A stretch of DNA of 60,443 nucleotides, counting the filler, from Dugesia japonica (Eukaryota), in the NCBI GenBank assembly GCA_001938525.1. It is 6 parts of 6 records of this genome, joined end to end, with 100 filler letters (N's around TTAATTAATTAA, not from the genome) between each part and the next. Parts side by side here need not be neighbours in the genome. Positions count along the whole stretch, not along the records: positions 17,818 to 29,160 come from MQRL01527427.1; 5 more parts are not named here. One strand, given 5' to 3'. A program made the translations under genes and the position numbers. The notes beneath the pieces are model-generated. The model had not been told where the DNA came from and searched no databases. It was given only the letters and a program-made list of their open reading frames with translations. Below, piece by piece: positions 17,818 through 58,620 of the stretch (its first letter is position 1; every line of letters starts with the position of its first letter).

Positions 17818-18130
17818 ACTATTGTCGAAAATTTGAACCTTTTTACAAATAAATTTTATTTTGATCGAAGCCTTTTCTCATTTTAATGAAATCTAAAATT
17901 AGAATGCTTGTTATTACTTGTGTTCTTGAAATAAATTGCTCTATTTTTGGTACTAATTGTTTTCCATTGTTGATTATTTCTACTCAACAAAGAGATTTTA
18001 TGATTCGTATTTTAAGACTATATGCAAATACTGTAAACTAATAATTTAAGGATGTTTGAATTTGATAAGTTGTATGTGAATACAATATTATATATTAAAT
18101 ATTTTATCAAAAATTTGAAACGTGTGTGTA

Positions 18131-18131
18131 A

Positions 18132-18174
<43 letters not shown>

Positions 18175-18708
18175 ATTATAATTATTATTATTATTATTAT
18201 TANNNNNNNNNNNNNNNNNNNNNNNNNNNNNNNNNNNNNNNNNNNNNNNNNNATTATTATTATTATTTTTGTTATTACAGACACGTTATATTAGTAATAT
18301 TGAAAATCAAACTATCTTTTAGTCGACATTAAATGTCCCATAGACTTTATAGATAATTTCAAGAAGGCTGATTTTAATAACCTACAGAATTATAATGAAT
18401 TATTATTAATGATTTAAAGGATACTATCAAAAAAAGGATGCTGTCGAGTTTTTAAATTTTTATTTGAATTAAAAATTAAATAATTATTTTTATTTTATTT
18501 AATTGATTATTTTTGTTTTAAATTTTATATGACAACTTATAATAATAAAGTAAAAATTTGGTTGAAAATTTTAATATTTAAAAAAGTATCACCAATTAAA
18601 ACATCGAATTCTAATTTGTTTGAATAAACAAATAGTATTGGAAATAGTTTAGTTTTGTGAATAAATATTTTGTGGAAATGAGTTTTGACATTAATAGTTA
18701 TTCTAACA

Positions 18709-18771
<63 letters not shown>

Positions 18772-18835
18772 NNNNNNNNNNNNNNNNNNNNNNNNNNNNN
18801 NNNNNNNNNNNNNNNNNNNNNATTATTATTATTAT
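18131..18835. repeat. Two (ATT)n microsatellites each followed by a near-identical ~190 bp sequence
   Basis: (att)n at 18131-18265 and 18709-18834, both running into gaps; 18253-18440 matches 18822-19012. Confidence 0.9.
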
Positions 18836-20299
18836 TTTTGTTATTACAGACACGTTATATTAGTAATATTGAAAATCAAACTATCTTTTAGTCGATATTA
18901 AATGTCCCATAGACTTTATAAATAATTTCAAGAAAGCTGATTTTAATAACCTTCAGAATTATAATGAATTATTATTAATGATACTATTAAAGGATACTAT
19001 CAAAAAAAGGATATATGCGGTCGAGTGTGGAAGTGGTTAGCACATATTAATGTGAGATGTGAATTTCCACATCTATGGCGATATTTTTCAAATTTTTAAG
19101 TAAACAATTGATTTTTATTGTTTTTTTGTGTAAATACTGAACTTTCACCATCTAAATGTTTTTTATGTGTGAACATTCATACTTTAATGTAAATAATGAA
19201 CTTTCAAACAATTTAGATCTAAGACTTTTAACAACTATTATATTTTTATGTATACTGTATTGCGCATCACAATATGAAGATATTGTTATCTTGTAAATAT
19301 TTTTAGCCGTGAATTTTCACACTGAATGAAATTAATTCACTTTCACTCCTTAGATCTAGATTTTACAAACCTATTATGTTCTCAATAATTACATTTATTT
19401 TTTTTGTAAACCTCCAAAAAAATGAAGAATGAAGTTTCAGACTTCAAGCGTCACCTTATTGATGAATCTTAATATTTTATTATTATTATTATTATTATCA
19501 TTATTTTAATTATATTATTATTTTTAATATGCAAGAATATGTAAAGATAATATTTTTTTTACAAGATGACACGTAATGTGCACACAGATTTAAACATTTT
19601 ATGTTAAACAATTTAAACATTTTTTTGATCAAAAATCAATTTCTAAATTATGGTTATCCAAAAATAATTATTTCTAAGTATTTATCCTCGAAAAGAAAAT
19701 TTAATAAAATCAAACAAAAACAAACACAGTAATTAAATTACCATTTATTGAATCTATCAAATAGTCATCATTCCTGAATGAAGCATTATATTTATAAATT
19801 TATTAAATCATTATCATTAATATCGATAAATTAATATCAATATTATCGATATTATCGAAATTATTATTTTTGAATTTCTTTACAAATACATTTTATTTTG
19901 ATCGAAGGTTTTTCTTTATTTTAATGAAATATTTTGTAAGCAATATAATTTCCATGATTTTAATATGGACAGGATATATTATCCGGTATACATAATTGAA
20001 GAAGCTCAGTTTAATTATAATTAACAATTCAAAGACTCGTGAAAATATGCATCAAATCAAATAATTATAATTCCATTATTTGATCTTTCACATAAAATAA
20101 TGCATCATTAGAAATTCATTGCAAGTCTTGGAATATTTGAATTGGATCAAACTTACAATCTTCATCAATCCACCTGAGTTGATAACTTCAGAGTAGTAAG
20201 TACTTATTAGTTGTTTGAGTAGGTTTTGACAAACTACCCATGAGTTAAGACATTGCAAACATGTAATGGACCGGTTGAAGAATATTATTCATATTCATT

Positions 20300-20585
20300 A
20301 TACGTAATTCTTTAATAAAATAGTTGACATTGTCATCCTGAAAAGCTTCACTGTCAATAAAAACACAGACATTTTCAATTATTTATTGATAATAACATTA
20401 ACATTGTTTATAATCACTGGTTTTTAAGCCGATCAATACAATATTGTCCATATAGAAATTTCAATCGACTCTGATACATGACTTGATTTTATTCGACACA
20501 ATACTGTATACGCTCCAATTTAGTGACCAGCAATGATGTATAAAATATACCCGTTGGATCAAATAGACGAATAATATATACCAGG
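20300..20585 (-). pseudogene. Polinton/adenovirus-type cysteine protease (adenain-like), C-terminal half
   Basis: A single frame reads IRLFDPTG..VE*NQVMYQSRLKFLYGQYCI, matching FD-x-x-G..N..Q..CG-x-YC with the catalytic Cys codon changed to TAT. A possible N-terminal piece lies at about 21700-21795, directly after the MCP stop. Confidence 0.7.
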
Positions 20586-20599
20586 ATACCTGATCAAAT

Positions 20600-21700
20600 T
20601 TTGAAGGTATTAAATACCACTATTAAAAGGTTAATACCATATTTTAATATTTCAATCTTTACTTTTTTATCAATTTTCTCATTAATATTTTTATCATTTA
20701 TCTTCTTTTCTCAATTTTGATCGCTTTATTTAATAATGATAATGATTGATTAATTAACATTTGTAACTTACTGATTTTTTATGTGGTTTTCTTGGTGAAA
20801 ATTATTAATTTAAATTAAATTTAAATATTAAAATTTTTATTAGTCATTTATAATTTTAATTTGTTTTTTAATAATCTAATTTAGCCCATGGAGAGTCCGA
20901 GAATAAAGTTTGTTCATCATTTAAAAATTGAGATGAAATAAAAAGGAGATTGTGTGAAATGTAAAAAGTGTGCACATATTATAAAAACCGGATGTGGCTT
21001 GAAAAATGGCCTCCATACACATTTAAAGACCAAACATAAAGTAAAATCACGAAAACGAGTTGATGTTGAACCTGTAGTTGGATCTAGTTCAAAATCTGAT
21101 AAGCGTTCTCCAAAAATTACAAAATTGTTTAGAAATATTAAGGACGACCCATTAGCAGCGATCCTAATTAGAATGATAGCACGTGAAATTTTTATAACAT
21201 CCGACGATCTTTGAAAATCACTGAAAGCCTTTAAGTTAAGTGATAAACTTCCAAAATCAGCCAACACCATACAGAAAATCGTCACTAATTATAGCAAAAC
21301 CATTCGTCAAGTATTAATTACTGAAACATTGGATTTAAAATTAAAAGGAAAGTGGTTAAGTATTACTTTAAGTATTACTTTCTCTAAGGAATCGTAGATA
21401 CATAAATGTGAATCTTCATTTGGAATCAAAAATTTTTAATTTCGGACTTTCCCTTATCAATATAAGTTTACCTGTAGTAAAATGTGTTTCAGTGTTAAAT
21501 GAAAAATTAAATCAGCGTGGCTTGTCCTTGGAGAAGAATTTGGTTTGTTTAACAAATGAAGATGACACAGTTATGCAGAAAGTAGGAAAATTAGTACCGA
21601 CTGCTCATTAATTGTGTTTGGTCCATGCATTATAACTAGGGAATGCAATGTATCATACAACTTGCGATCGTATATGTTCTTTATAAAAAAGATACAAATG
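20600..21700 (+). mobile_element. hAT transposon fragment with BED zinc finger
   Basis: CKKCAHII..GLHTHLKTKH (BED), LPKSANTIQKIV, RYINVNLH and CLVHAL (C-x-x-H) motifs; multiple stops. Confidence 0.8.
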
Positions 21701-21817
21701 AAGATAGAAACAGCAATCCGCATCAAAACACAGCTCATCAAGTGTGGGCAGATTAAATTATAGATTCAAAGGTCAGTGAGGTTGTATGTGACATACACAT
21801 ATGGATTGTTTATAAAA

Positions 21818-22700
21818 CTAATACTCTTTGATGTTAATTTGACATTCCGAATCAAAAACCCCATATGCACAAATTATCACTGAATCCATAGAGATTTTAT
21901 GGATTCGCACATCTAACTTGAGATTTCCGGTTTTTCGGCAATTGCGGTTGATAAACTACAAAATCTAGGGCCAATACAAAAGTGAAAAATGTATATAAGT
22001 CTTTTAATTCCTTCATTTTAGTACAATTGTTTCAAACATTTAACAGACCGATGTTACGAATAATAAATTGCACATATGCCTCAGTATAGTTGGTATCAAA
22101 GTCAGTAGTACATGTTTCTCGATAATCAAGGTTTCTTGCCAAGCATATTGACTTTACACCGAAATTTGAGAATATCGAAAAAAATAAGCCATAATCACTA
22201 CTTGCTGGTTTTGATGATTGGAAAGCAATCAAAACAAATCTTGGTAATTGTTCATCAGAAAAGTTATTATCTATGCATGTGAGTTTTTGTAATTGTAAAA
22301 TATACGATGTTTGTTTTTGAAAAGGGTAGATTGCAGTTTGATGTTCCGATCCTTGACGTTGTCCAATCATAACTAACTCATCAACAAACAAACACGGCGC
22401 ACCAAAGGTTTCGCTTCTATAATGTATGGCTATAGGTTTATATAAATTGTATCAGTATCCTTATTATATTTGTAAATTACCGAACCAACATTTCTTGTCA
22501 ATTTTATTGTCACAATAACTCCAGGTAGAAAATACTTTGGTTGATCAACAAAATAAAGAATAAAATCAATGCATAGCGTGAGCATTGAATACCTTTTAAT
22601 TTATCGTTTTATTTTATTATCTTCCTTGTGATAACCAATGGCTTCAAGAAATGTGGCCTTTGTATATGATCCAAAACTCAAAGCCACTTCTTCTCCTTAA
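21818..22700 (-). pseudogene. Polinton/adintovirus major capsid protein (double jelly-roll), disrupted
   Basis: Ordered motifs: EVALSFGSYTKATFLEAIGYHKED; DQPKYFLPGVIVTIKLTRN; IIEAKPLVRRV; IYPF..NNFSDEQLPRFVLIAF..FSNFGVKSICL..DFDTNYTEAY; GNLKLDVR; IICAYGVFDSECQIN. These match the Polinton PY/MCP consensus as I recall it. Confidence 0.8.
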
Positions 22701-22739
22701 TCTAATATTTTCGTAATCTTCGTATAAATAACAACAATT

Positions 22740-23214
22740 TATTAATTAATTAATATAATATTAATAAACTTTACCATTTCCTAATACATGTTGTACTTTT
22801 GACTATTTTGTTTCAATTTATTCTTATTGTTGTACACAAACTCATTATTCATGATAAATGTGTTAGTCCTTATACTACTAATGCGATTGGTAGTAATGCT
22901 GCTATATAGCCACTATTTTTTTCATACAGAACCTTTTCATTAATTTTTTGTATTTACAAGTCTTAACAGTAACATATTATGCTTTTCCAACGCTTGATTT
23001 TAATTTTTCTTAAAGTTACATAAACGATATTTACAATAATCTCAACTAAATCATCTCTAAAAAATGATAAAAATGACTGTAACATTCTCTTTCTCATCAC
23101 AGCTGTAGATTTTATCAATGTTGTAAAAAACGAAAGATTTTTTTCAAAATCCATTAATATTTTAATAAATACACTTTTTATTTTAATAAATAAATTGTTT
23201 ATCACTTTATTCAT
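22740..23214 (-). pseudogene. Small Polinton-type accessory protein remnant
   Basis: LVEIIVNIVY..SGYIAALLPIAL resembles the E-x-x-x-N..GGFL-x-x-LL small protein of Polinton morphogenesis clusters; it lies directly upstream of the MCP. Confidence 0.4.
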
Positions 23215-23954
23215 TTTTTAGTTTAAAACTTCTTTCCATACATTTTCGAGAGCATTTTGAATTAAAATTGTAACATTTTATGCTTAAATTACGATTAGCT
23301 ATGTACGAATTGTGACCTTCTGTGTGTAAATTGTTATTATATATTGTACATTGAGATATTAGTTTGTAATTTTTCAAGTTAAAATTGTATTTGTATAACA
23401 TAAATTAATATAGATTTATTGAAAATATTACTAAGTTTATAAGTAATTACATTAAAATTTATAGACTCGTGATAAAAATATAGACTAAGTTTAATAAGAT
23501 TGGTCAAATTTCCATTAATTTCTTTAATTTCTCTAAGTTTTATAAATTTCACAAAGTTTAGCAAAGGATTATAAAAATCCAGTAAATTTAACAAACATGT
23601 GGATATAGTAAGCTAATGGATACAGACGACAGATCATAAGCAGCAAACCAATGAATATATTATGTAAATAAGTAGTGTAAGCCCATGTGATTCAGTAAAA
23701 CCAATGGACTCAATGTAGTAAAGAATTATAATACCGGTATTAAAACAAGTATTCAAAGAAATTAATTAAATCACACTTTTTTCAAAAATGATTCATATTT
23801 TTATTGGTAATGTATAAAGATTTACATTTATTTATTTTGAAATATAAATTAATACAAATAATTCATTAAAATAATGATTAAATTAAACATAATTCATTTA
23901 AAATAAAAGCTTCGATTAACATTTTTTGTTTTATTTTTATTGATATTTGATAAC

Positions 23955-23988
23955 AATTCGATATTTCAACTTAGTCTTCTTCAGGAAA
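23955..23988 (-). ncRNA. Minimal type I hammerhead ribozyme in pLTR
   Basis: Minus strand UUC-CUGAAGA-A-GAC UAA GUU-GAAA-UA-UC-GAA. Confidence 0.75.
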
Positions 23989-25002
23989 TGACTTTTTAAT
24001 AAATTCAATATTTATTCTTATAATAGTAATTTTCTTTGGATAAATTTATTTGTAACTAATTCTTCTTTAGAAAAAATTTTAGAATTAGAAAACAATTTAA
24101 TTGAAAACATTAATTTCACTTTAGAGAAATCAATTGACTTTCAGATTCAATTTCTGGACACTTTAATCCAAATGAAACCTGCTGATATAATAACTACTCA
24201 ATGGTATATGAAAACATTTCACAGTGGACATAACCTTGGAGTAGTAATACGACCATCAGTCAAAAAATTGCTATAATTAAAGGTGAAAGAATACGAGCTG
24301 AGAGACTATCTTCAAATGAAGAAATGCAATTGACTTCTTTCAAGTTGATAAAAAATAAATTCTTAAATAACGGCTACCCAAATAAAATTATATCAAAATA
24401 TTTATCTTTAGATACAAATCGAAAAAAATCAAACCAAAACCAAACACAATTATTAAATTACTTTTTATTAATGAGAAATGTAGCCAAATCATGCAGAATA
24501 TAATAAAAAATGCTAAACTCAAACAGAATCCAAGAATTATTTTCAAAACACAAGCACCTTTATCATCAAATTACGGAAACCAAGACAAAATTTTGTGGTC
24601 CCAAATGCATTTGTGATGGTAGAAATATGTGCAATAAGAAAATTGTCACTTATAAAATAATATGCACTATTTGTTAATAAATATATTTAGATGAAACATG
24701 CAGAACCAACAGAACAAGAATTAAGGAACATTTAAAACAAAAGAAAGTAAAGTCTTCAAACACTTTCCACACAAGCATAAAATTTTACCAGAAAATCATT
24801 ACATTACATGGGAAACACTAGAAACTGGTTACATTTCTACACAAAATAGAAAAAACATGAAAAATTACTTATTAAAGAAAATAATCCTAAAATAAATGTA
24901 ATTTATAATAATTAAAAAATTGAACTTAAAATTAAAATTAATCAATTAAAATTTAGTAAAGAATCCAAAGAAAATTTATATTTTAAGAATAAATTAAAAC
25001 GT

Positions 25003-25039
25003 CAATTCATGAAGAAGACTAAGTCGAAATATCGAATTG
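25003..25039 (+). ncRNA. Hammerhead ribozyme in 3' pLTR with a core C3-to-A substitution
   Basis: CAAUUC-AUGAAGA-A-GAC UAA GUC-GAAA-UA-UC-GAAUUG. Confidence 0.65.
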
Positions 25040-25259
25040 TTATCAAATATCAATAAAAATAAAACAGTTTAATTGAAGCTTTTATTTTAAATGAATTCTG
25101 TAAAACGATCAATGGATATGTACAACTATTATTCTCTCAATAATTGCAATTGTAAAATAAACATAATGAACTTAAAAATCATAATTCATTAAAATATATT
25201 TCAATAAAAATTTTGTTGGTCTATTTTGTAATATACTTATCAAATCGTTATTTATCTTC

Positions 25260-25560
25260 TTTGAAATACCCTCTTAAAAACAAAGAGCATCCAAAGTTCT
25301 GTCATCCATTCTGCATCACAACTTATTTAAAATTACACCGGCCGCAGAAACGCTCTTTCGAATTCAACACTGTTTGTGTGAACCGTTAAGAAGTTCGTTT
25401 AACCTGTTGGAGGTATTTTCTTTTATTTTCAAACTGGCGCATTTCTTTTTTTAGAAAATTGTTTGGATCCCCTCCACGTTCTGATACTTTTCCGACTTTA
25501 AAATATTTTGTTTCAAAATGGAAGCGTCTAACTGCTTCAATAATAAATTTTCAGACTTTT
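25260..25560 (-). pseudogene. hAT transposase C-terminal dimerisation domain fragment
   Basis: KKEMRQFE..TNSVEFERAF/SAAGVILNKL*CRMDDRTLDAL, with a frameshift. Confidence 0.8.
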
Positions 25561-25589
25561 CTGTTGTTTCATCAATATATTATTTTGAG

Positions 25590-25960
25590 AACCAGAAATA
25601 TTTGTACAACAAACCCTATGTATAATATGTTCAGCCTTTTACTCTGAGTTTAAAAATACTTAATTTTTTTGATTATCATAAGCATTTCTAGAAACAAATT
25701 TTTTATCTATGGTGCAACATTGCACTTGGAAATTTTATATCTTTTGAACCAAACATATTTTTACAGCAAACCCTATACAAAATAGGTTTGGAATTTTATT
25801 TTGAATAGTACTACTTGTGAGGCGACACGATAGGTTTTGCAGAGACATTTTAAAAACTAGTCAAAGTGTTTCAGAACTCCCATACCTTTCTCTTCGAAAC
25901 TAAAATTATTTATATAGCAGATTCTATACAAAAAATGTTTAGTTTTTGATTCTAGAAGAA
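25590..25960. repeat. Degenerate ~153 bp tandem repeat (about 3 units)
   Basis: An acagcaaaccctatacaaaa-like motif recurs at about 25606, 25762 and 25914. Confidence 0.5.
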
Positions 25961-26409
25961 TCAATACTAAACTCGATATCATACAATAGAATTCGAACGA
26001 AGTATTTGTATTTTAAATTACTATACGATCTTCCCCAGCAAGAATTTGACCGTTCCAATTTGAATTCAAAAAGAATTTTCATGTATACGTAACGTTCAAT
26101 CAAAAGCATACATTTCAAAACACTAAAACGTCAAAATGTTAAAAACAGTCGGCATCGGGGGGGGCTGTTCTAGTGCACTCATATCTATCTACTATTATTA
26201 TCATGTTCTTCTATCCATTCTGCTTTCAATAAACGAACATTAACATTAATAACAACAAAAGGTTCAGCAATACTACTGTTAGATGAGTTTTGAGAACTTG
26301 GATTATCAATATTAAAATTCATCTCCATAAACTATTTGTCAAAATAAAACTATTCACATAATTTTGTTTTTTTCCAAACAAATTTAATAATTCATATTTA
26401 AAAATGGAA

Positions 26410-26700
26410 AATATTAAATTCTAAAATTTTATTGATATATAATTTTAAAACACTAAAATAAACATTTTTTATTCATTTACTTTATATTTTAATCAATTTA
26501 AAATATATTTACATTCTTAAATTTTATTCAAATGTAATTTTAAAACACTAAAATAAACATATTCCATTCATTTATTTTATATTTTATTCTATTTACAATA
26601 TAATTTGATTTTTAAACGTATTAATATCAAATTTCAAAACACTAAAATTAACATATTTCATACATTAATATATATTTTATTTTATTTACAAATTTTAAAA
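26410..26700. repeat. ~95 bp AT-rich tandem repeat (3 units)
   Basis: aattttaaaacactaaaataaacat recurs at 26441, 26536 and about 26630. Confidence 0.7.
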
Positions 26701-26800
26701 TTGCAATTATAGCGAGAATAATTGATGGTTATACAGAATTCATATAAAATAAAACCTTCAATTAAAATTTTTTGTTTTTATTTTTATTGATATTTGATAG

Positions 26801-26837
26801 CAATTCGATATTTCGACGTTGTCTTCGTCAGGAATTG
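26801..26837 (-). ncRNA. Intact minimal type I hammerhead ribozyme (solo pLTR, about 26690-26885)
   Basis: Minus strand CAAUUC-CUGACGA-A-GAC AAC GUC-GAAA-UA-UC-GAAUUG: 6-bp stem I, 3-bp stem II, full core. Predicted cleavage between 26807 and 26806. Confidence 0.85.
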
Positions 26838-26999
26838 AAAAAAGTCAATTCCTGACAAAGATAAGGTTGACAAATCGAATTGTTAAATTTTAGTAATTTA
26901 TATTATAAATTATTTTCCTAATAAAAATTTAAATATACTTTTGATTTTAATAAATTCCGTTTTAAAAAATAGAAATTAAATCTGCTTTAAAAAGAACTA

Positions 27000-27760
27000 T
27001 TTTATAACTACAATAGATGTAAATTTCATTATAACACTTCAATATTCTAGGTTTCTTATTACTTTTATATTATAGTTGTTCATCATAAAAATGTATTCGA
27101 GTACATTGAGATTCAATTAATCCTAATGATTTTGATAGTATTTTATTGAAGTTACCACGTTTTATTCTAATGATTTTAATTCAAAAAAAAATATACCAAG
27201 GTGTAATTCATTTAGCTTACTTCCCAATTCCCATCCATGTAAATTGGATTTTGAAGCTCAACAATATAATTACTACAAGTATTATTTAGACGAACTAGTG
27301 GACAACTATTACTTTGTAAAAGTGTTTAGAAATTATTTGATTTCTTCTGAACTATTATCTTTATTGACTATTTGCATGAAACAATATGAAGATTAATTGT
27401 TAATCTTTCTAAAATGTCACGTTAAATGAGTTTTAGAGTCTTAAGCAAAGTTTATTAGTTTTTCATTATCATCGCGTATATTGATTTCTTTATTGTTTAT
27501 ATTTGATTAAGAAATAAGTAAATACTGTAAATTTTCATTAATAATTATAACTACTTTATTATTCTCATATTTTTCTATCCATATTGATTTCAATAAAGTA
27601 ACATCAAAATAAACAAAAACAAAAGGTTCAGCAATACTACAATAGATGAACATTTCATTATAACACTTCAATATTCTAGGTTTCTTATTATAGTTGTTCA
27701 TTATCAAAACTTATTCGAGTAAATTGCGATTTTATTAATCCTAGTGATTATTTTTAAGAT
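27000..27760 (-). pseudogene. Polinton minor capsid (penton) fragments, partially duplicated
   Basis: SNIIVELQNPIYMDGNWEVS (L-x-x-PI-x-L-x-G-x-WEV motif) near 27215-27280 and MFIYCSIAEPFV..LLKSI near 27575-27650. A related piece lies at 26190-26345. Confidence 0.65.
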
Positions 27761-29160
27761 TTTGTGAAATTTGGGTCCATATTCATATCACTATTATTTT
27801 ATTCATCATATAAAAGACAATAATAGTATACTATTCTTAAATCATATTTCATCCAGAGTACCTGGGTCTAACCACTCGATAGGCTCTTCTGGTATAAAAT
27901 TAGACACCGCCGTGTCATCGTTATTGTCCCATTGTAAACTAGACACTTTGCCTAATTGACGAGACAAGTCGGAGATATAATGTTTAAAAATATTTGTCTT
28001 ATTTTATAGAAGCTGTTTGGTTTGCTTTGCCAGGTCACTCTGCTTTTTCACAATCACATCCATCCGTTTGATTAACTTATTGCGTTGGGCCAGATGTTTT
28101 AGTAAGGCCCTTTCACTCTGTCGTTTGACAAGTCTTTCTACCAATAATTTCTGTATCAGGTGGTGGCAACGTCGCAAGCTATTTGGGAGTCTATTTTGTG
28201 GCACTGAAAAACAAAATGATATTTAGCATGATAACTTATACAAATTATGATTATTTATAGTGAGACAAAAATGCCTTTAAACTAAAGTGAGCAGAAAGAA
28301 TAACGCAACCAAAAATTTTTAATATAATATTTTTTACAATTCAAGTCATTATCGTGACGTTTGGATACCCTTATCGACCATCAAAGGTTCGAGGGGCATG
28401 GCCGTTTTTAGTGTTAAAATATCATTGATCAGTTTATTCTCTTCGTCTTGGTAGGACCAGATTGTCCCTATGAATGACTTGACTTGCCCCTTTCCATATT
28501 TTTTCTTAGGCATGTGATGCCTCAGCCTCCTTCCTAAACGCGACGCATTTAGACTTGTATCGTTTTACTTTGGCTTCCGCTGAAGCGGTATCAGCCTCCC
28601 AACATCTTTTGGCTAGGCGATAGATGTCCCATGTCATCTCCTGGTCACTACTTTATTCGCGTACCTTCTTAGTGGGCTCTGCTGTACGATTTATTGATGA
28701 ATGCACTATAAAAATGAAGTATTAAATAAAAATCCTAGATAAAACAACAAAGTTAAATAATAGACAAATTTCTTATTATGATTTATGTGAGTCGTTAGTA
28801 ACAGCAGTTATACAGTGAAAGTTATATTAATGAACAACCAAAATTGAATAAAATGTAAGAAAAAAACGCATCGCTACACAGGAGTTTCATTAGCGGGATC
28901 AGCGTTTTTGGAATTGTTATTTTCGACCGATTCTCAAATATTCCAAAGATTGTTTTGGATGAAGGCACCCAGTTCGGAATAAGGAGGTATCTGCTCCGTG
29001 GACATACTTACAACCGAGGGGCCTACCTGCCATACTCGAACCGTCTGAGATTCTCCATTGATATCTATTTGGGTAGTGGTAACAGCTTACAGAACAGCGC
29101 AAGTGCGATCTGGTCCGTCCCAGTTATAGTAAGATGCACGCTCGTTCGCATCCCACTCCC

Positions 29161-32599: not shown

Positions 32600-35325
32600 T
32601 AGAATGAAGATATGAAAATTATGGAAATAAGAGGAAAAAAACAATTAAAACCAATGATTATAATCGCAAATTAGATTACAATGAATTATATATCATTTTC
32701 CAATTTAAGGTGAAGAACTTCAAATTGAAATCGGTTCAAATTTCAGAACATGTGAGAAATCAGGTTGAAGAAGAGATCAAGAAATTCAAACATTGTAAGG
32801 TGAAATTTAGAATCCATATATAATTTGAAATTAATGATGGTGATGAAAAAGAAAGTAAAGAACAGTTATTATCGTACATTGATATGGAATATTCAGATGA
32901 TTTTATGGATAAAATAACAGAAAAAGCAAATACCGAATTTTCAATACATTCAATGCTCAGCAGTGGATAAAAGATTAGAAGAATATTAGAGCTACGATTT
33001 ATTTGATGAAATATAAAACAGTGACTTATTTATAAATAACACATTCAGAGTACTACAGCATTACATAGATCCATGCAATACTGAATCTGAAATTCAAAGA
33101 TTTTCGAAAAACAATAACATCGAATTTTGTAATACATGCAGATATTGAAGCTGTTCTAGTACCGTAAGAAAATAGTAGTATAGTAAAACATGTACCAATA
33201 TCTGTAGAGTTTCATTGATAATAACAATAAATTACTGAATACAACAATAAAATGCAAGTATCATTCGTTTTCTAGTACAAGCTGGATGGTGTAGTTTTTA
33301 AAATGTATTGATAAGTTGTCAAAGAATGCAATGTCTCATTGGTATAAAAAAATATGTGTATGAAAATGAAATTGACAACAATAGAAAAAATGACTTTTAC
33401 GAAAAGCACACTTTGCTTCATTTTCTAGAAGCAATAAAAACAAGCTGGTTCGTAATCATGATCACTATACTAGAAAATATCTAGGAGTTGCATGCAATCA
33501 GTGCAATTTATCACGCAAAGTTAGAATGAAGTTAACGGTCGTGTTTAATAACTTTAAAGGTTATTATTTACATCACATCACCAATTATGTGCTTAACCAA
33601 TTTCCACATTTTGATCTGAATCCATTCGCACAAACAACTGAAAAGATTTGGCAATGTTTGCACATGTTGTTAATCATGTTACGATATGAATTAAAGATTC
33701 TAGTTCTAGTTTATAAATATTGACGAAAGCTCTTGAATGCTGTTCATTAATATCAACCAAATTTCTTAAAACAAGGGTATATTCCCAGATAAATTTGAAG
33801 TGCCGTATGAAATGCTCATAAATCAAACCGTGTTACCAGCACAATGACCAGAAATAACAAATGAAGAATATAAAATCGCAAAGTTAACGTGAATAGAATC
33901 TTGAATATAAAGCTAGACATATACTAGAATGTATTTCAAAGATTTCGCAAAATGCACTTGAAGAACATGGATTGGAATCGTTACAATTTGTTTCATTCAC
34001 AAGATTGAGTTTGTCAAGTTCTCTCAAGTCGATGAATAGACCAATATAATTACTTTAAGATGCTGAAGTGCATTACAATTTGAGCTCGAAATTTGCGAAG
34101 GAGTGACGCGAAGGAATAGGAATTATGTCCAGGCAGATGAAAATACATAATTGCTTTATATTGACATCAATACTTGAACCTTAAGGCAGCCTTTACCATA
34201 TAGCGATTTTGAAATTAAATCAGAAGATTAAATTGAAGAAACATATCAGAAGATGATCGCCGATAACAAGAATGAGATTGGATACCTGCTTGAAATTGAT
34301 CTTGAAATACCTAACGAACATCATGATATGTTAGATGAATTACTTTTGGTTACAGAATATCGAAATTTAAATTTACAAGATCGAAAGTTAAAAAGTTGCT
34401 GACACATGAACCAAAACGAGATTATATCGTATATTGGCAATTTTATATTGGAATTATATATAAAACTCGAGACTTGTGTGACTGCAATACATAGAATAAT
34501 TCAATTTAAACAAACATAAATATTGCCGATTATATTAATGTGAATTCTGCGAGAAATGCTGGAAAAAAGTTCAAATTTTAAAACGTTTTCTAAAAACTAT
34601 TAAATAATGCGCTATATGGCAAGAATTTAAAGAAGCGCCCGGATCTTCGGCCATGTAACAATGAAAAGAAATTTGTAACTTACACTATCAAAGTTACGTT
34701 TAAGAAAACAATGGATATTGCAGAAGGACTCAATGCTTTATTGTTAGAGAAAATACTATTTGTCTAAATAGACCGAATTATATAGACCAAGTGGTTTTAG
34801 ATTTGTGTAAATTGCGAATAAGTAGATTCGAATATGTAGAGTTGGGAAAATATCGTCAACAATTTATTGCTGGAGATACGGATAGTGTTTTTTTATCATG
34901 TACCCGAGAAGATAAAAACAAACACTTGTCTCAGATAAAATCGGGTGATATTTTGGATACAAGCAAGTATATAAAAGATCATCCTCTCTATTCCAACAAT
35001 AAAGGCAAAGATTATGCTGAATGAGTATTTTTAAAGCAAAAATTTTATAGTTTGAAGAAAGCAGATGTTAGTATGACAATAATAGGAAATAGAGTCAGTT
35101 TAAAACAAACAGATATCAATCATCAAACTTATTTAAATATGTACAAGAAAGTCGGAGACGGAGAGGAAAAACCAAACAAAGTTATGCAGACTAACTTGCA
35201 ATCACAAAATCATCAGTTTTATACAATAGATCATGTGAAACGCTTATTTTTCTTGTCTGGATGACAAGCGCTTTTGGAGCGGAAAAGTACTAGTATGGCA
35301 TATAGTCATTATAAAATAAATAATA
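32600..35325 (+). pseudogene. Polinton-type family B DNA polymerase with endonuclease-VII-like Zn motif, heavily disrupted
   Basis: Motifs in the correct order: ADIEAVL (ExoI), RNHDHYTRKYLGVACNQCNL, VFNNFKGY (ExoII), LLYIDIN (motif A), GYLLEIDL, KLLNNALYGK (motif B), AGDTDSVF (motif C), DDKR. Confidence 0.9.
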
Positions 35326-55908: not shown

Positions 55909-56990
55909 CAGGGGGTCTCCCCTTGTTGCAGATCGATATAGATCTTCGATTTGATTCATTATTGATATTTGTCTGATTAATTATTGATTTCTGAAGTGAT
56001 TTATTATTGATTTTTGAGTTGTTTGGTTTTTTNNNNNNNNNNNNNNNNNNNNNNNNNNNNNNNNNNNNNNNNNNNNNNNNNNNNNNNTAGATTTATATAT
56101 CTGAGAGAATTTTTAATTTTTATGCGTTTGCTCAAGATAAGCGAACTGAAAAACTGAATGAGCATACAAATTCTCTGTCAATGCAACAAAATATGTTCAC
56201 CAGAATAAATTATGAGAATGTGGCTAGTATTACAGCTGGATTTAAAATTTGTCACCGTATAGTTGCTTCAGGTAGGCCATTCAAAGATGGCGAGTTTATC
56301 AAATGTTGCATTATTGATGCGGTTTCTACTAATCTTCCAGAAAATATATCACGTTCAAGAAATACAGTAACAAGACGAACAGAACAAATTTCTGAAGATA
56401 TTATTAAACAACTTAATGAGCGTATTCAAAAATTTCTACATTTTTCTATTGCTTTGGATGAGAGCACAGATGTAGTTGATACAGCGCAACTACTTAATTT
56501 TTTAAGAGGTGTAGATTCCGATTTCGATGTTACAGAAGAGCTAGCGGCACTTTCTTCCTTATATGGATCAACAACAGGACAAAATATATTTGATAGTATG
56601 GAAATGTGTTTTGATAAGTTGCAATTAAATTGGGAGAAATTATTTAATGTCACTACAGATGGAGTGCAATGTATGACTGGAGATAATATTGAAATCAGAG
56701 GGAAAATTAATGAAAAAATGGTTTACTTCGAGTTGAAAACACCTTTATATTTGCATTGTATTATACATCAATACAATTTATTGGCAAAAACCTTGAAGTT
56801 TGAAGATGTTTTGAAAACAGTAATTTCTACTGTTAATTTCATACGGAATAATATTTGGATGAAACTGATGTTGATTGAGATGATTTAATATATTTCGCTG
56901 AAGTTAGATGGCTAAGTAAAAGTAAAGTTCTAACTAGATTTTTAACTTACCAAAATAAATTATATCATTTTGTAATAAAAAAATTTTTGT
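55909..56990 (+). mobile_element. hAT (Charlie/Buster, GTF2IRD2/SPIN-like) transposon, 3'-truncated
   Basis: ORF 56181-56888: RPFKDGEFIK..SRNTVTRR..FSIALDESTD..AQL..EEL..TTG..VTTDG..HCIIHQ, then EVRWLS in another frame. A TIR-like CAGGGGGTCTCC lies at 55909. Confidence 0.92.
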
Positions 56991-57039
56991 AATAAAGAAT
57001 TCTTAAAATTCGTTATTCTCCACATTTCAAATCCTTTTT

Positions 57040-58620
57040 CATACTATTCATCTGTGTCTCCATCCCATTTCGGTGGCATTTGTCTTGTTTTAACCAGAAC
57101 TTGCAAACTGGTTGCATAATTATATGAAAATATCCCTTTTGACGTTGTTATTCTTGTATCTTTAAACTCCTTTAACGCCAAAGGTGTCTCTTTTAAGGAC
57201 ATTACCGCCGAATTGAGTGATGAGTTGTTGGAATACAAATTAGACTCCATTCAAGAAATTTATTTAATCCATATTTCAAGATATGATTCAAATTCTACCC
57301 TCTTAAATTGTGATATACAACTGGTAGTTGGCTTTTTACTTTTCTGCTCAAATTACATTTAGAGGATGCTGCACCCAAATACTGATCAGTAAAGTGATCA
57401 TGATCACGAATTGGTGCAGACAATGTTTTCTTACACAAATAACAATTTGTGGGTGCAGCAAGTGATATTTCTTTCTCTTTTGATATTATTATTTTCTTAT
57501 TTTCATTTTTCTCGAAATATGTAGTTACCATAATTTTATTTATTTCTTGAATTTCCTTAAGGAAATCAAATACACAGCCATCTCCAATGAACTGATTATA
57601 TGATGTTTTGTAAGTAAAATTATTTACTAACAGTATTCTTGAAGAAACCGGCATATGTTTTGGAAAATGAACTTTGTATGACGGTAAAACTGATTCAAAA
57701 TCAGCATATATGACGAATGCTGGTGTCAATGTCTTTGAGAAATCCTTAAACTCTAAGTTTCTTTCCGCCTGGATGGTTTATAATTACATATTGTATCTAA
57801 AAAATATGCCATTTGCAAAGTGTGAAAAACATGTTTTACTTTGTATTTTCTCGCAAATTATTTAAATCTTTTCGAACGCTATTTTCTTTCTGAATCTATT
57901 TCAACAATTTAGACACTATATTCATTGAATTTTTGTGTCGTCTATTTTATCATATTGGTTCTTTAATCTATTCAAGTCCATTACACCCGTGTAATGGTAA
58001 TTATTATCATTTTCTATCAACAACAAATACATATGCTTTCCGTCTACCAGGCGTGACCTGCGGATTTTATCTAGATTGGGATGCTTTGATCATCTTCTAC
58101 ATTATTTGAATTCCATTGACTGCATATCTTGGATTTTTTCTTTTAAATTATTTAATATTTTCAAGTTGCATTAGCATATCTGTTTCTTTAAACTCTAATT
58201 CAAACATATAATTTTCATATACAGATGGTCTATGTCTACAGTTACTATCAACTTAATCTTTTTTGATAGTTGCTAAACTATTGAAAATAAAGCATTTATT
58301 GTCTTTATTTTGAATTCTAACCACTGCCATTTTCTTTTTCAGATTGATTGGGTTGGTATGTAACTATGTCTTGACAGTCTGCTAATTGGTGATGTTAAAA
58401 TTCACTTTCAAAATCCTACTCAGTATCCAAATGGAACTGAGCTCGCGCCTTATAAACATTTTTTTGTTCAAAATCTTTATTTCTTCTTTGAAAAAGTTTT
58501 CATCTAGTTGAACAGCCTTATTTAAGATTCTGCAAGTCTTTATCTCCTCGTCGCTGATAAATTCCACGTTGAGTCCAAATTTTATTTTTACTTCTTTCAT
58601 CTTTTTAATGATCTTAAATA
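57040..58620 (-). pseudogene. Second Polinton-type PolB, N-terminal/exonuclease part, disrupted
   Basis: NKDNKCF, YHYTGVMDLNRL, FVIYADFESVL, RDHDHFTDQYLGAASSKCNL, YHNLRG, KGIFSYNY; collinear with 32600-33850. Confidence 0.88.

What the first reader, a model, noticed from the sequence alone, without database searches (positions are those of the whole stretch)
20100..23600. Endogenous Polinton/adintovirus virion-morphogenesis cluster hidden under frameshifts
Seen on the minus strand in order: a small accessory ORF, major capsid motifs (22700-21818), then an adenain-like protease split by a hAT insertion, then further unassigned coding-like sequence near 20100-20300. The ORF track shows only a 119-aa piece of the capsid. 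Known: MCP next to a maturation protease is typical of Polinton/adintovirus genomes. Inference: a capsid-encoding DNA virus lineage integrated in this host. The motifs look divergent, so it may be an undescribed clade.
Basis: partly seen in the sequence, partly recalled or inferred. Interest (0 to 1): 0.7.

Follow-up and report, generated by a model that had tools for sequence, protein, structure and literature searches.

The report
Decayed Polinton end in nested repeats
This is the broken tail end (capsid, protease and nuclease-like genes) of one of many copies of a virus-like jumping element of the well-known Polinton/Maverick kind, fused to pieces of two other repeats, so the site is likely a dead genomic fossil rather than a new virus.

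Summary
The virus-like genes are real; the 'cluster' is not one element. On the minus strand lie codons ~128-416 of a Polinton major capsid gene (two frameshifts, three stops), the C-terminal half of an adenain-type protease, a Maelstrom-fold (MAEL) pseudogene and the element's terminal repeat. A natural sister copy folds as a double jelly roll (pLDDT 90; Foldseek E 2e-16), and the protease family profile hits adenovirus protease (E 1.5e-8). The protease is truncated, not split: its N-half is absent. The 'accessory ORF' is a pX-like gene from a second, neutrally decaying Maverick-derived repeat joined on by a deletion. The family is high-copy (99 of 99 scored candidates matched the capsid, nearly all broken); sister copies give PolB, TBP-like, ATPase, pX-like, integrase, penton, PW-like, capsid, protease, MAEL between AGTAG-led inverted repeats. 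Its capsid has relatives at 60-78% identity outside this genome and a profile match to vertebrate Maverick-type proteins (E 9e-97). Verdict: new member of a known kind. The one unusual feature, a TBP-like gene, is absent from this window and was noted by this scan before on other genomes. Expression untested.

The parts
19005..19620 (.). Right terminal inverted repeat of Polinton family A, outer bases decayed (edges approximate)
   Evidence: Matches 39 other contigs of 40 scored; sister ends start with AGTAG; same sequence lies beyond PolB at the other end of sister copies
19933..20397 (-). MAEL-like (Maelstrom/DEDD RNase H fold) pseudogene, 8 stops
   Evidence: 55-60% aa to sister ORFs; profile iE 4e-40; model of a metagenomic relative: best match Maelstrom, Z 11.5, rmsd 2.6, 134 aligned, Foldseek E 9e-4
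20417..20575 (-). C-terminal half of the maturation protease; one stop, catalytic His region absent, catalytic Cys not kept
   Evidence: 62-68% aa to sisters; family profile hits adenovirus protease E 1.5e-8; 34 of 37 members hit Pfam Peptidase_C5 at E<=0.1, best 1.1e-7
20578..21784 (+). 5' part of a hAT-like DNA transposon, terminal repeat trimmed, no target-site duplication
   Evidence: 10 other contigs of 40 scored at 78-81%; zf-BED in a sister copy E 1.2e-7; sister ends TAGGGAATCC at both sides, missing here
21836..22690 (-). 3' two thirds of the major capsid protein gene; frameshifts near 22385 and 21930, stops at 22603, 22432, 22034
   Evidence: sister copy folds as double jelly roll
22689..23714 (.). 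Internal piece of Maverick-derived repeat family B, joined to the capsid gene at a deletion junction
   Evidence: 39 other contigs of 40 scored; sister copies run on past 22689 with their own sequence; junction bridged by one public contig with 0 differences
   Evidence: profile from 9 metagenomic ORFs: window iE 4e-16, and iE 2.5e-6 to an ORF that passes Pfam Adeno_PX; stops
23715..25576 (-). 3' part of the same hAT-like element, inverted, interrupted by another repeat at about 23904-25152
   Evidence: sister copies continue from the 21784 point directly into the 25576 point
25577..26193 (.). Terminal repeat of family B, ending in AGTAG at 26193
   Evidence: four further copies end in AGTAGAT; inverted arms around the pX-like ORF in L046

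Best explanation
The site is the broken right-hand end of one copy of a high-copy Polinton/Maverick family, joined to a piece of a second Maverick-derived repeat and to two halves of a hAT-like transposon, and it likely makes no working protein today. Shown: gene identities, breaks, copy abundance, family gene map, inverted repeats. Inferred from known Polinton biology: the parent family copied itself with a protein-primed PolB, inserted with its RVE integrase, and could build capsids (capsid, penton, ATPase, protease); its TBP-like gene probably served its own transcription and the MAEL-like protein probably acted as a nuclease. Inferred history of this locus: family A inserted; family B came to lie beside or in it and a deletion removed the left part of both; a hAT inserted and was then broken at one point, its 5' part ending up in place of the protease N-half; point decay followed.
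For: Fold and profile tests. Gene order INT-penton-small ORF-capsid-protease in sisters equals the vertebrate Maverick module (PMC8097293, section 7 read). PolB-TBP-ATPase linked in L186 and L187, PolB Pfam E 7e-11. One contig holds both ends with flanking 6-mers alike in 5 of 6. Every gene in the window has stops or truncations. 30 sister copies are 87% alike on average with a star-like tree; the window copy is 80% alike. Family B ORF dN/dS 0.95 over 22 copies. Junctions at 21785 and 22690 are bridged by public contigs.
Against: Capsid dN/dS is 0.46 among sisters (28 pairs against one copy) and 0.31 for the window copy, so not all change is neutral; I read this as selection before insertion, but cannot date it. 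The protease/hAT junction at 20578 was not bridged in the listed pieces: four records stop at 20577 with 19-32 unmatched letters, so that joint may be strain-specific or an assembly product. No contig shows all family A genes together; the map is pieced from overlapping defective copies. The target-site duplication rests on one element. Pfam gives no capsid hit for the sister copy and only 2 of 66 relatives hit DJR-like_dom, weakly.
Confidence: 0.9

Rival explanations
1. One contiguous morphogenesis cluster of a single, undescribed virus lineage.
For: All four genes lie on one strand and a pX-like gene does precede the capsid module in this group. No named close relative found.
Against: In family A about 3 kb (integrase, penton, small ORF) separate the pX-like gene from the capsid; the window ORF is 24% identical to family A's in a sister comparison and belongs to family B. 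Capsid relatives at 60-78% exist elsewhere.
Confidence: 0.05
2. The host has co-opted the capsid or pX-like piece for a function of its own.
For: dN/dS 0.31 for the window capsid against one sister; the locus is present in runs of three studies.
Against: Stops and frameshifts throughout; pX-like piece dN/dS 1.6; an allele lacking 22613-23197 is seen in all four runs laid.
Confidence: 0.02
3. The mosaic is largely a short-read assembly artefact.
For: Assembly of 648,594 contigs; the 20578 joint is not bridged; the inverted hAT halves need a complex history.
Against: The 21785 joint is bridged in three runs of two studies and the 22690 joint in one. An artefact would not change the gene identities.
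Confidence: 0.08

Closest known systems
Group 1 Maverick-Polintons / vertebrate Mavericks (PMC8097293; 10.64898/2026.06.19.733378)
   Same: Module integrase-minor capsid-PW-major capsid-protease; ATPase next to a pX/PZ-like gene; AGT-led terminal repeats; most copies degraded; capsid profile hits 'F54H12.2-like' proteins of the skink Tiliqua (E 9e-97; 28% identity). That these proteins are Maverick capsids is recalled, not shown by a call.
   Different: Family A adds TBP-like and MAEL-like genes, puts ATPase and pX-like gene on the capsid strand with PolB divergent, ends in AGTAG(G/A) rather than (AGT)2, and reaches far higher copy number than the vertebrate median of eight.
Adintoviruses, Beta-class virion module (PMC8502044)
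   Same: Small ORF between penton and hexon and a pX-like gene (their Cupiennin and GasderminX, by position); MAEL-labelled genes occur in their maps (Fig. S2 text); TBP-like genes are noted in some MELD viruses.
   Different: No sequence comparison with their references was possible; Alpha/Beta class is inferred from gene order and from recalled PolB motifs; their MAEL labels were in the Alpha-PolB panel and their TBP label in the figure on non-animal datasets.
TBP-bearing Polinton-like contigs in public metagenomes (L105-L184)
   Same: Same gene set and order at 41-51% capsid identity in the nearest ones; TBP-like gene in 11 of 80 loci, MAEL-like in 23 of 80, most loci too short to tell.
   Different: Open reading frames, PolB convergent after MAEL, hosts unknown.
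DNA/Maverick expansion in Dugesia planarians (10.64898/2025.12.11.693146, two passages read)
   Same: Large Maverick expansion in an animal genome.
   Different: The host here was not identified by my calls; an earlier scan note calls it a planarian. The passages give no gene-level description.

Membership tests
Polinton/Maverick (Polintoviricetes) | [quoted passage not shown] | tested here: met
   Sister copy model pLDDT 90, pTM 0.88; Foldseek to iridovirus and PBCV-1 capsids E 2e-16, TM 0.6. Window holds a broken 3' part.
Polinton/Maverick (Polintoviricetes) | Adenain/Ulp1-type cysteine protease | tested here: met
   Profile of 37 vs adenovirus protease E 1.5e-8; H, D, Q invariant, C in >=90%. 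Window holds the C-half only.
Polinton/Maverick (Polintoviricetes) | [quoted passage not shown] | tested here: met
   In sister copies linked to TBP and ATPase; PF03175 E 7e-11. Not in this stretch. Terminal-protein and vOTU domains not tested.
Polinton/Maverick (Polintoviricetes) | RVE integrase | tested here: met
   rve E 9.6e-8 in L067, collinear with penton and capsid. Not in this stretch.
Polinton/Maverick (Polintoviricetes) | A32/FtsK-like packaging ATPase | tested here: met
   Pox_A32 E 6e-5, above cut-off, in L064. Not in this stretch.
Polinton/Maverick (Polintoviricetes) | Minor capsid protein (penton) | tested here: inconclusive
   Conserved ORF in the expected place, 25-38% alike to metagenomic ORFs; no Pfam hit; not folded.
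Polinton/Maverick (Polintoviricetes) | Terminal inverted repeats | tested here: met
   Same sequence beyond PolB and beyond MAEL, inverted, both on C647826.
Polinton/Maverick (Polintoviricetes) | 6-bp target-site duplication | tested here: inconclusive
   One element with both ends, 5 of 6 bases alike, one end motif itself changed; the strict screen reported none.
Polinton/Maverick (Polintoviricetes) | Virions or present activity | not testable with these tools
   No data obtained on expression or particles.
Adintovirus Alpha vs Beta class | PolB and hexon cluster with Mayetiola or Terrapene references | not tested
   Reference sequences not available to the tools; Beta inferred from gene order only.
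hAT transposon (20578-21784, 23715-25576) | BED finger, short TIRs, 8-bp duplication, dimerisation domain | tested here: inconclusive
   BED finger and TIRs in sisters; DUF659 weak, E 0.002; dimerisation domain not hit in the 5 pieces tried; duplication not tested in sisters, absent here.
Non-autonomous Maverick derivative (family B) | Maverick-type TIRs without PolB, integrase or capsid | tested here: inconclusive
   AGTAG end; inverted arms 5.3 kb apart in L046 with only the pX-like gene between; no copy with both clean ends and a duplication.

The most novel reading that the evidence does not exclude
Family A belongs to a Polinton clade, not yet described in print, that carries its own mini TATA-binding protein and a Maelstrom-fold nuclease (a possible counter to piRNA silencing) and expanded to thousands of copies in this host, with a second lineage leaving a non-autonomous, pX-carrying element that was mobilised in trans.
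Probability: 0.4. Interest if true: 0.5.

Novelty: new member of a known kind. Interest (0 to 1): 0.2.

Why it matters
The locus itself is one fossil among very many and matters only for repeat annotation. The family is of modest interest: it shows at least three Polinton capsid lineages in one genome, a massive expansion, and a gene set (TBP-like, MAEL-like) that could say how these elements switch on their genes and meet small-RNA defence. Those two genes can be assayed from open-frame metagenomic relatives.

Tried and rejected
Pfam on the window's own ORFs and frames: no capsid, protease or MAEL hit. Protein search with the 139-aa piece: none of 73 candidates scored. PDB sequence search with the capsid, single and profile: nothing significant. 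Viral contigs: 80 pattern matches, no relative. Shallow protease profile (10 copies): adenovirus protease only E 1.7; the 37-row profile settled it. MAEL-like profiles vs PDB sequences: nothing credible; Atlas gave Maelstrom only as a lead, 0.87. Protease-like words I first saw at 21400-21600 lie inside the hAT and are chance. I first took 22689 for a terminus of family B; sister flanks refuted it. I first took the PolB of L022 for family A's; linked copies show another PolB lineage. No RNA holder listed, which is no evidence; expression remains untested. Literature: 6 searches found no paper describing a TBP-bearing animal Polinton clade; subscription journals, Repbase and unread supplements could hold one. 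The PMC8502044 supplement was cut at 4 million characters and its sequence and host tables were not reached, so its zero hits for flatworm names mean little. The supplement of PMC4028283 was not seen.

Full report
Setting. The finding lies in the pack stretch 17818-29160, which is contig G000:C527427, 26% GC, in an 854-Mb assembly of 648,594 contigs. My calls did not identify the host; an earlier, unchecked scan note on the same genome calls it a planarian.

Observation. Pfam found nothing in the window's own frames. A DNA search of the genome split the region into three repeats: of 40 scored candidates, 29 other contigs matched the capsid part, 10 matched 20578-21723 and one was the window; a second search gave 39 other contigs of 40 for 22690-23720. 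Natural sister ORFs laid on the window placed capsid codons 128-416 of 424 at 22690-21836, the protease C-half at 20575-20417 and a further ORF at 20397-19933. Family profiles agree and find no capsid N-terminus and no protease N-half in the stretch; the reversed stretch gave no hit. Stops: three in the capsid pieces, one in the protease, eight in the third ORF, four in the accessory ORF.

Identity of the genes. A sister capsid frame that is still open (L029) found 73 relatives among 2332 candidates, 29-78% identical, none named. Folded with 65 of them it gave pLDDT 90 and matched double jelly-roll capsids of iridovirus, PBCV-1 and virophages (E 2e-16); the top viral-library match was a Cotesia bracovirus protein (E 6e-25, 21% identity, TM only 0.38). 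The profile reaches 11,642 clusters at E<=0.001. Of 20 clusters looked up, one had an informative name, 'F54H12.2-like' from a skink, 28% identical. The protease profile of 37 ORFs hits adenovirus protease (E 1.5e-8). The third ORF's family folds like Maelstrom/DEDD nucleases (Z 11.5, tied within 1 with a second Maelstrom; arenavirus exonuclease 10.3); the model was of a metagenomic relative. A shared fold shows no activity. The accessory ORF matches a profile of 9 metagenomic ORFs that also reaches an ORF passing Pfam Adeno_PX, an indirect link.

Family A. Overlapping defective copies give: terminal repeat, PolB and TBP-like gene on one strand; ATPase, pX-like, integrase, penton-like, small ORF, capsid, protease, MAEL-like on the other; terminal repeat. 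The TBP-like gene passes Pfam (E 9e-13), matched in 150 of 150 scored candidates of 4714 and lay next to the ATPase in 18 of 20 stretches. Ends begin AGTAG; one contig has both ends with flanks alike in 5 of 6 bases. The capsid query matched in 99 of 99 scored candidates of 9165; only the query itself was listed as open over its whole length. Thirty copies are 87% alike on average, the window copy 80%. Capsid dN/dS against L029 is 0.46 (28 copies), 0.31 for the window and 0.15-0.26 for six other lineages (simple counting method, low-identity codons filtered out). A quick tree of 73 pieces (the careful search did not finish) nests the window copy among family A and three outside proteins (support 97) and needs at least three origins for this genome's capsids. 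Metagenomic relatives show the same order with open frames.

Family B and the hAT. The 22689-23714 piece continues in sisters with its own, mostly non-coding sequence on both sides and ends in AGTAG at 26193 in the window. Its pX-like ORF changes neutrally (dN/dS 0.95, 22 copies), as expected of a passenger. Apart from the pX-like gene, the only other Maverick genes in the 18 sister loci were a capsid and protease of another lineage in L047 and a PolB piece in L049. The hAT-like element is broken at one point into two opposite halves, both lacking their terminal bases. Public contigs bridge the 21785 and 22690 joints but not, among the pieces listed, the 20578 joint; they also show an allele lacking 585 bases around the capsid/family B joint. 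One of those runs may be the source of the assembly.

Mechanism. Today the locus most likely does nothing (0.9). The parent family would have worked as described for Polintons (PMC4028283, passages; PMC11161782, passages; 10.1101/2023.08.22.554363, passages). The order of local events is inferred, not shown.

Comparison and novelty. The capsid module equals that of vertebrate Mavericks (PMC8097293, section 7 and passages). MAEL and TBP labels already appear in adintovirus/MELD maps (PMC8502044, results part 1, passages, text of Fig. S2; 10.1101/697771, passages). Mavericks, Polintons and adintoviruses are synonyms (10.64898/2026.06.19.733378, passages). Maverick expansion in Dugesia is reported (10.64898/2025.12.11.693146, two passages). 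PMC11131425 was searched for six terms with no hit. This scan noted TBP-bearing Polintons in two other genomes and Polinton ends elsewhere in this one. Recalled, not from a call: the equation of F54H12.2-like proteins with Maverick capsids, Beta-type PolB motifs, and the hAT affinity of TAGGG ends. Verdict: new member of a known kind, interest 0.2.

Noticed in passing
L013:6129-6575 and family A copies: TBP-like gene divergent from the packaging ATPase in family A and present in 11 of 80 metagenomic relatives; not in the window's stretch.
   Followed up: partly
window 33232-35324 (+) and 56948-58603 (-): Broken Polinton PolB remains in two other stretches of the pack.
   Followed up: no
window 23904-25152: Repeat with inverted ends inside the hAT 3' part; translation resembles Penelope RT end and GIY-YIG by recall, but Pfam gave no such hit.
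   Followed up: partly
window 18139-18449 and 18822-19026: Near-duplicate sequence flanking two N gaps with (ATT)n runs, possibly an assembly duplication.
   Followed up: no
L047, L070-L073: Further capsid lineages in the same genome, 35-50% identical to family A.
   Followed up: partly
L096: pX-like gene related to family B, followed by integrase and a second PolB lineage; possible autonomous relative of family B.
   Followed up: no
L114:9125-12391, L112:2818-6474: PolB of metagenomic relatives carries an endonuclease VII-like insert (Pfam E 8e-5 and 2e-4, just under cut-off).
   Followed up: no
L142:225-719: ORF resembling a ubiquitin-conjugating enzyme (by eye) near the end of a metagenomic relative.
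   Followed up: no
G000:C369378 and C21727: Contigs 94-95% identical to parts of this locus, probably alleles or recent duplicates.
   Followed up: no
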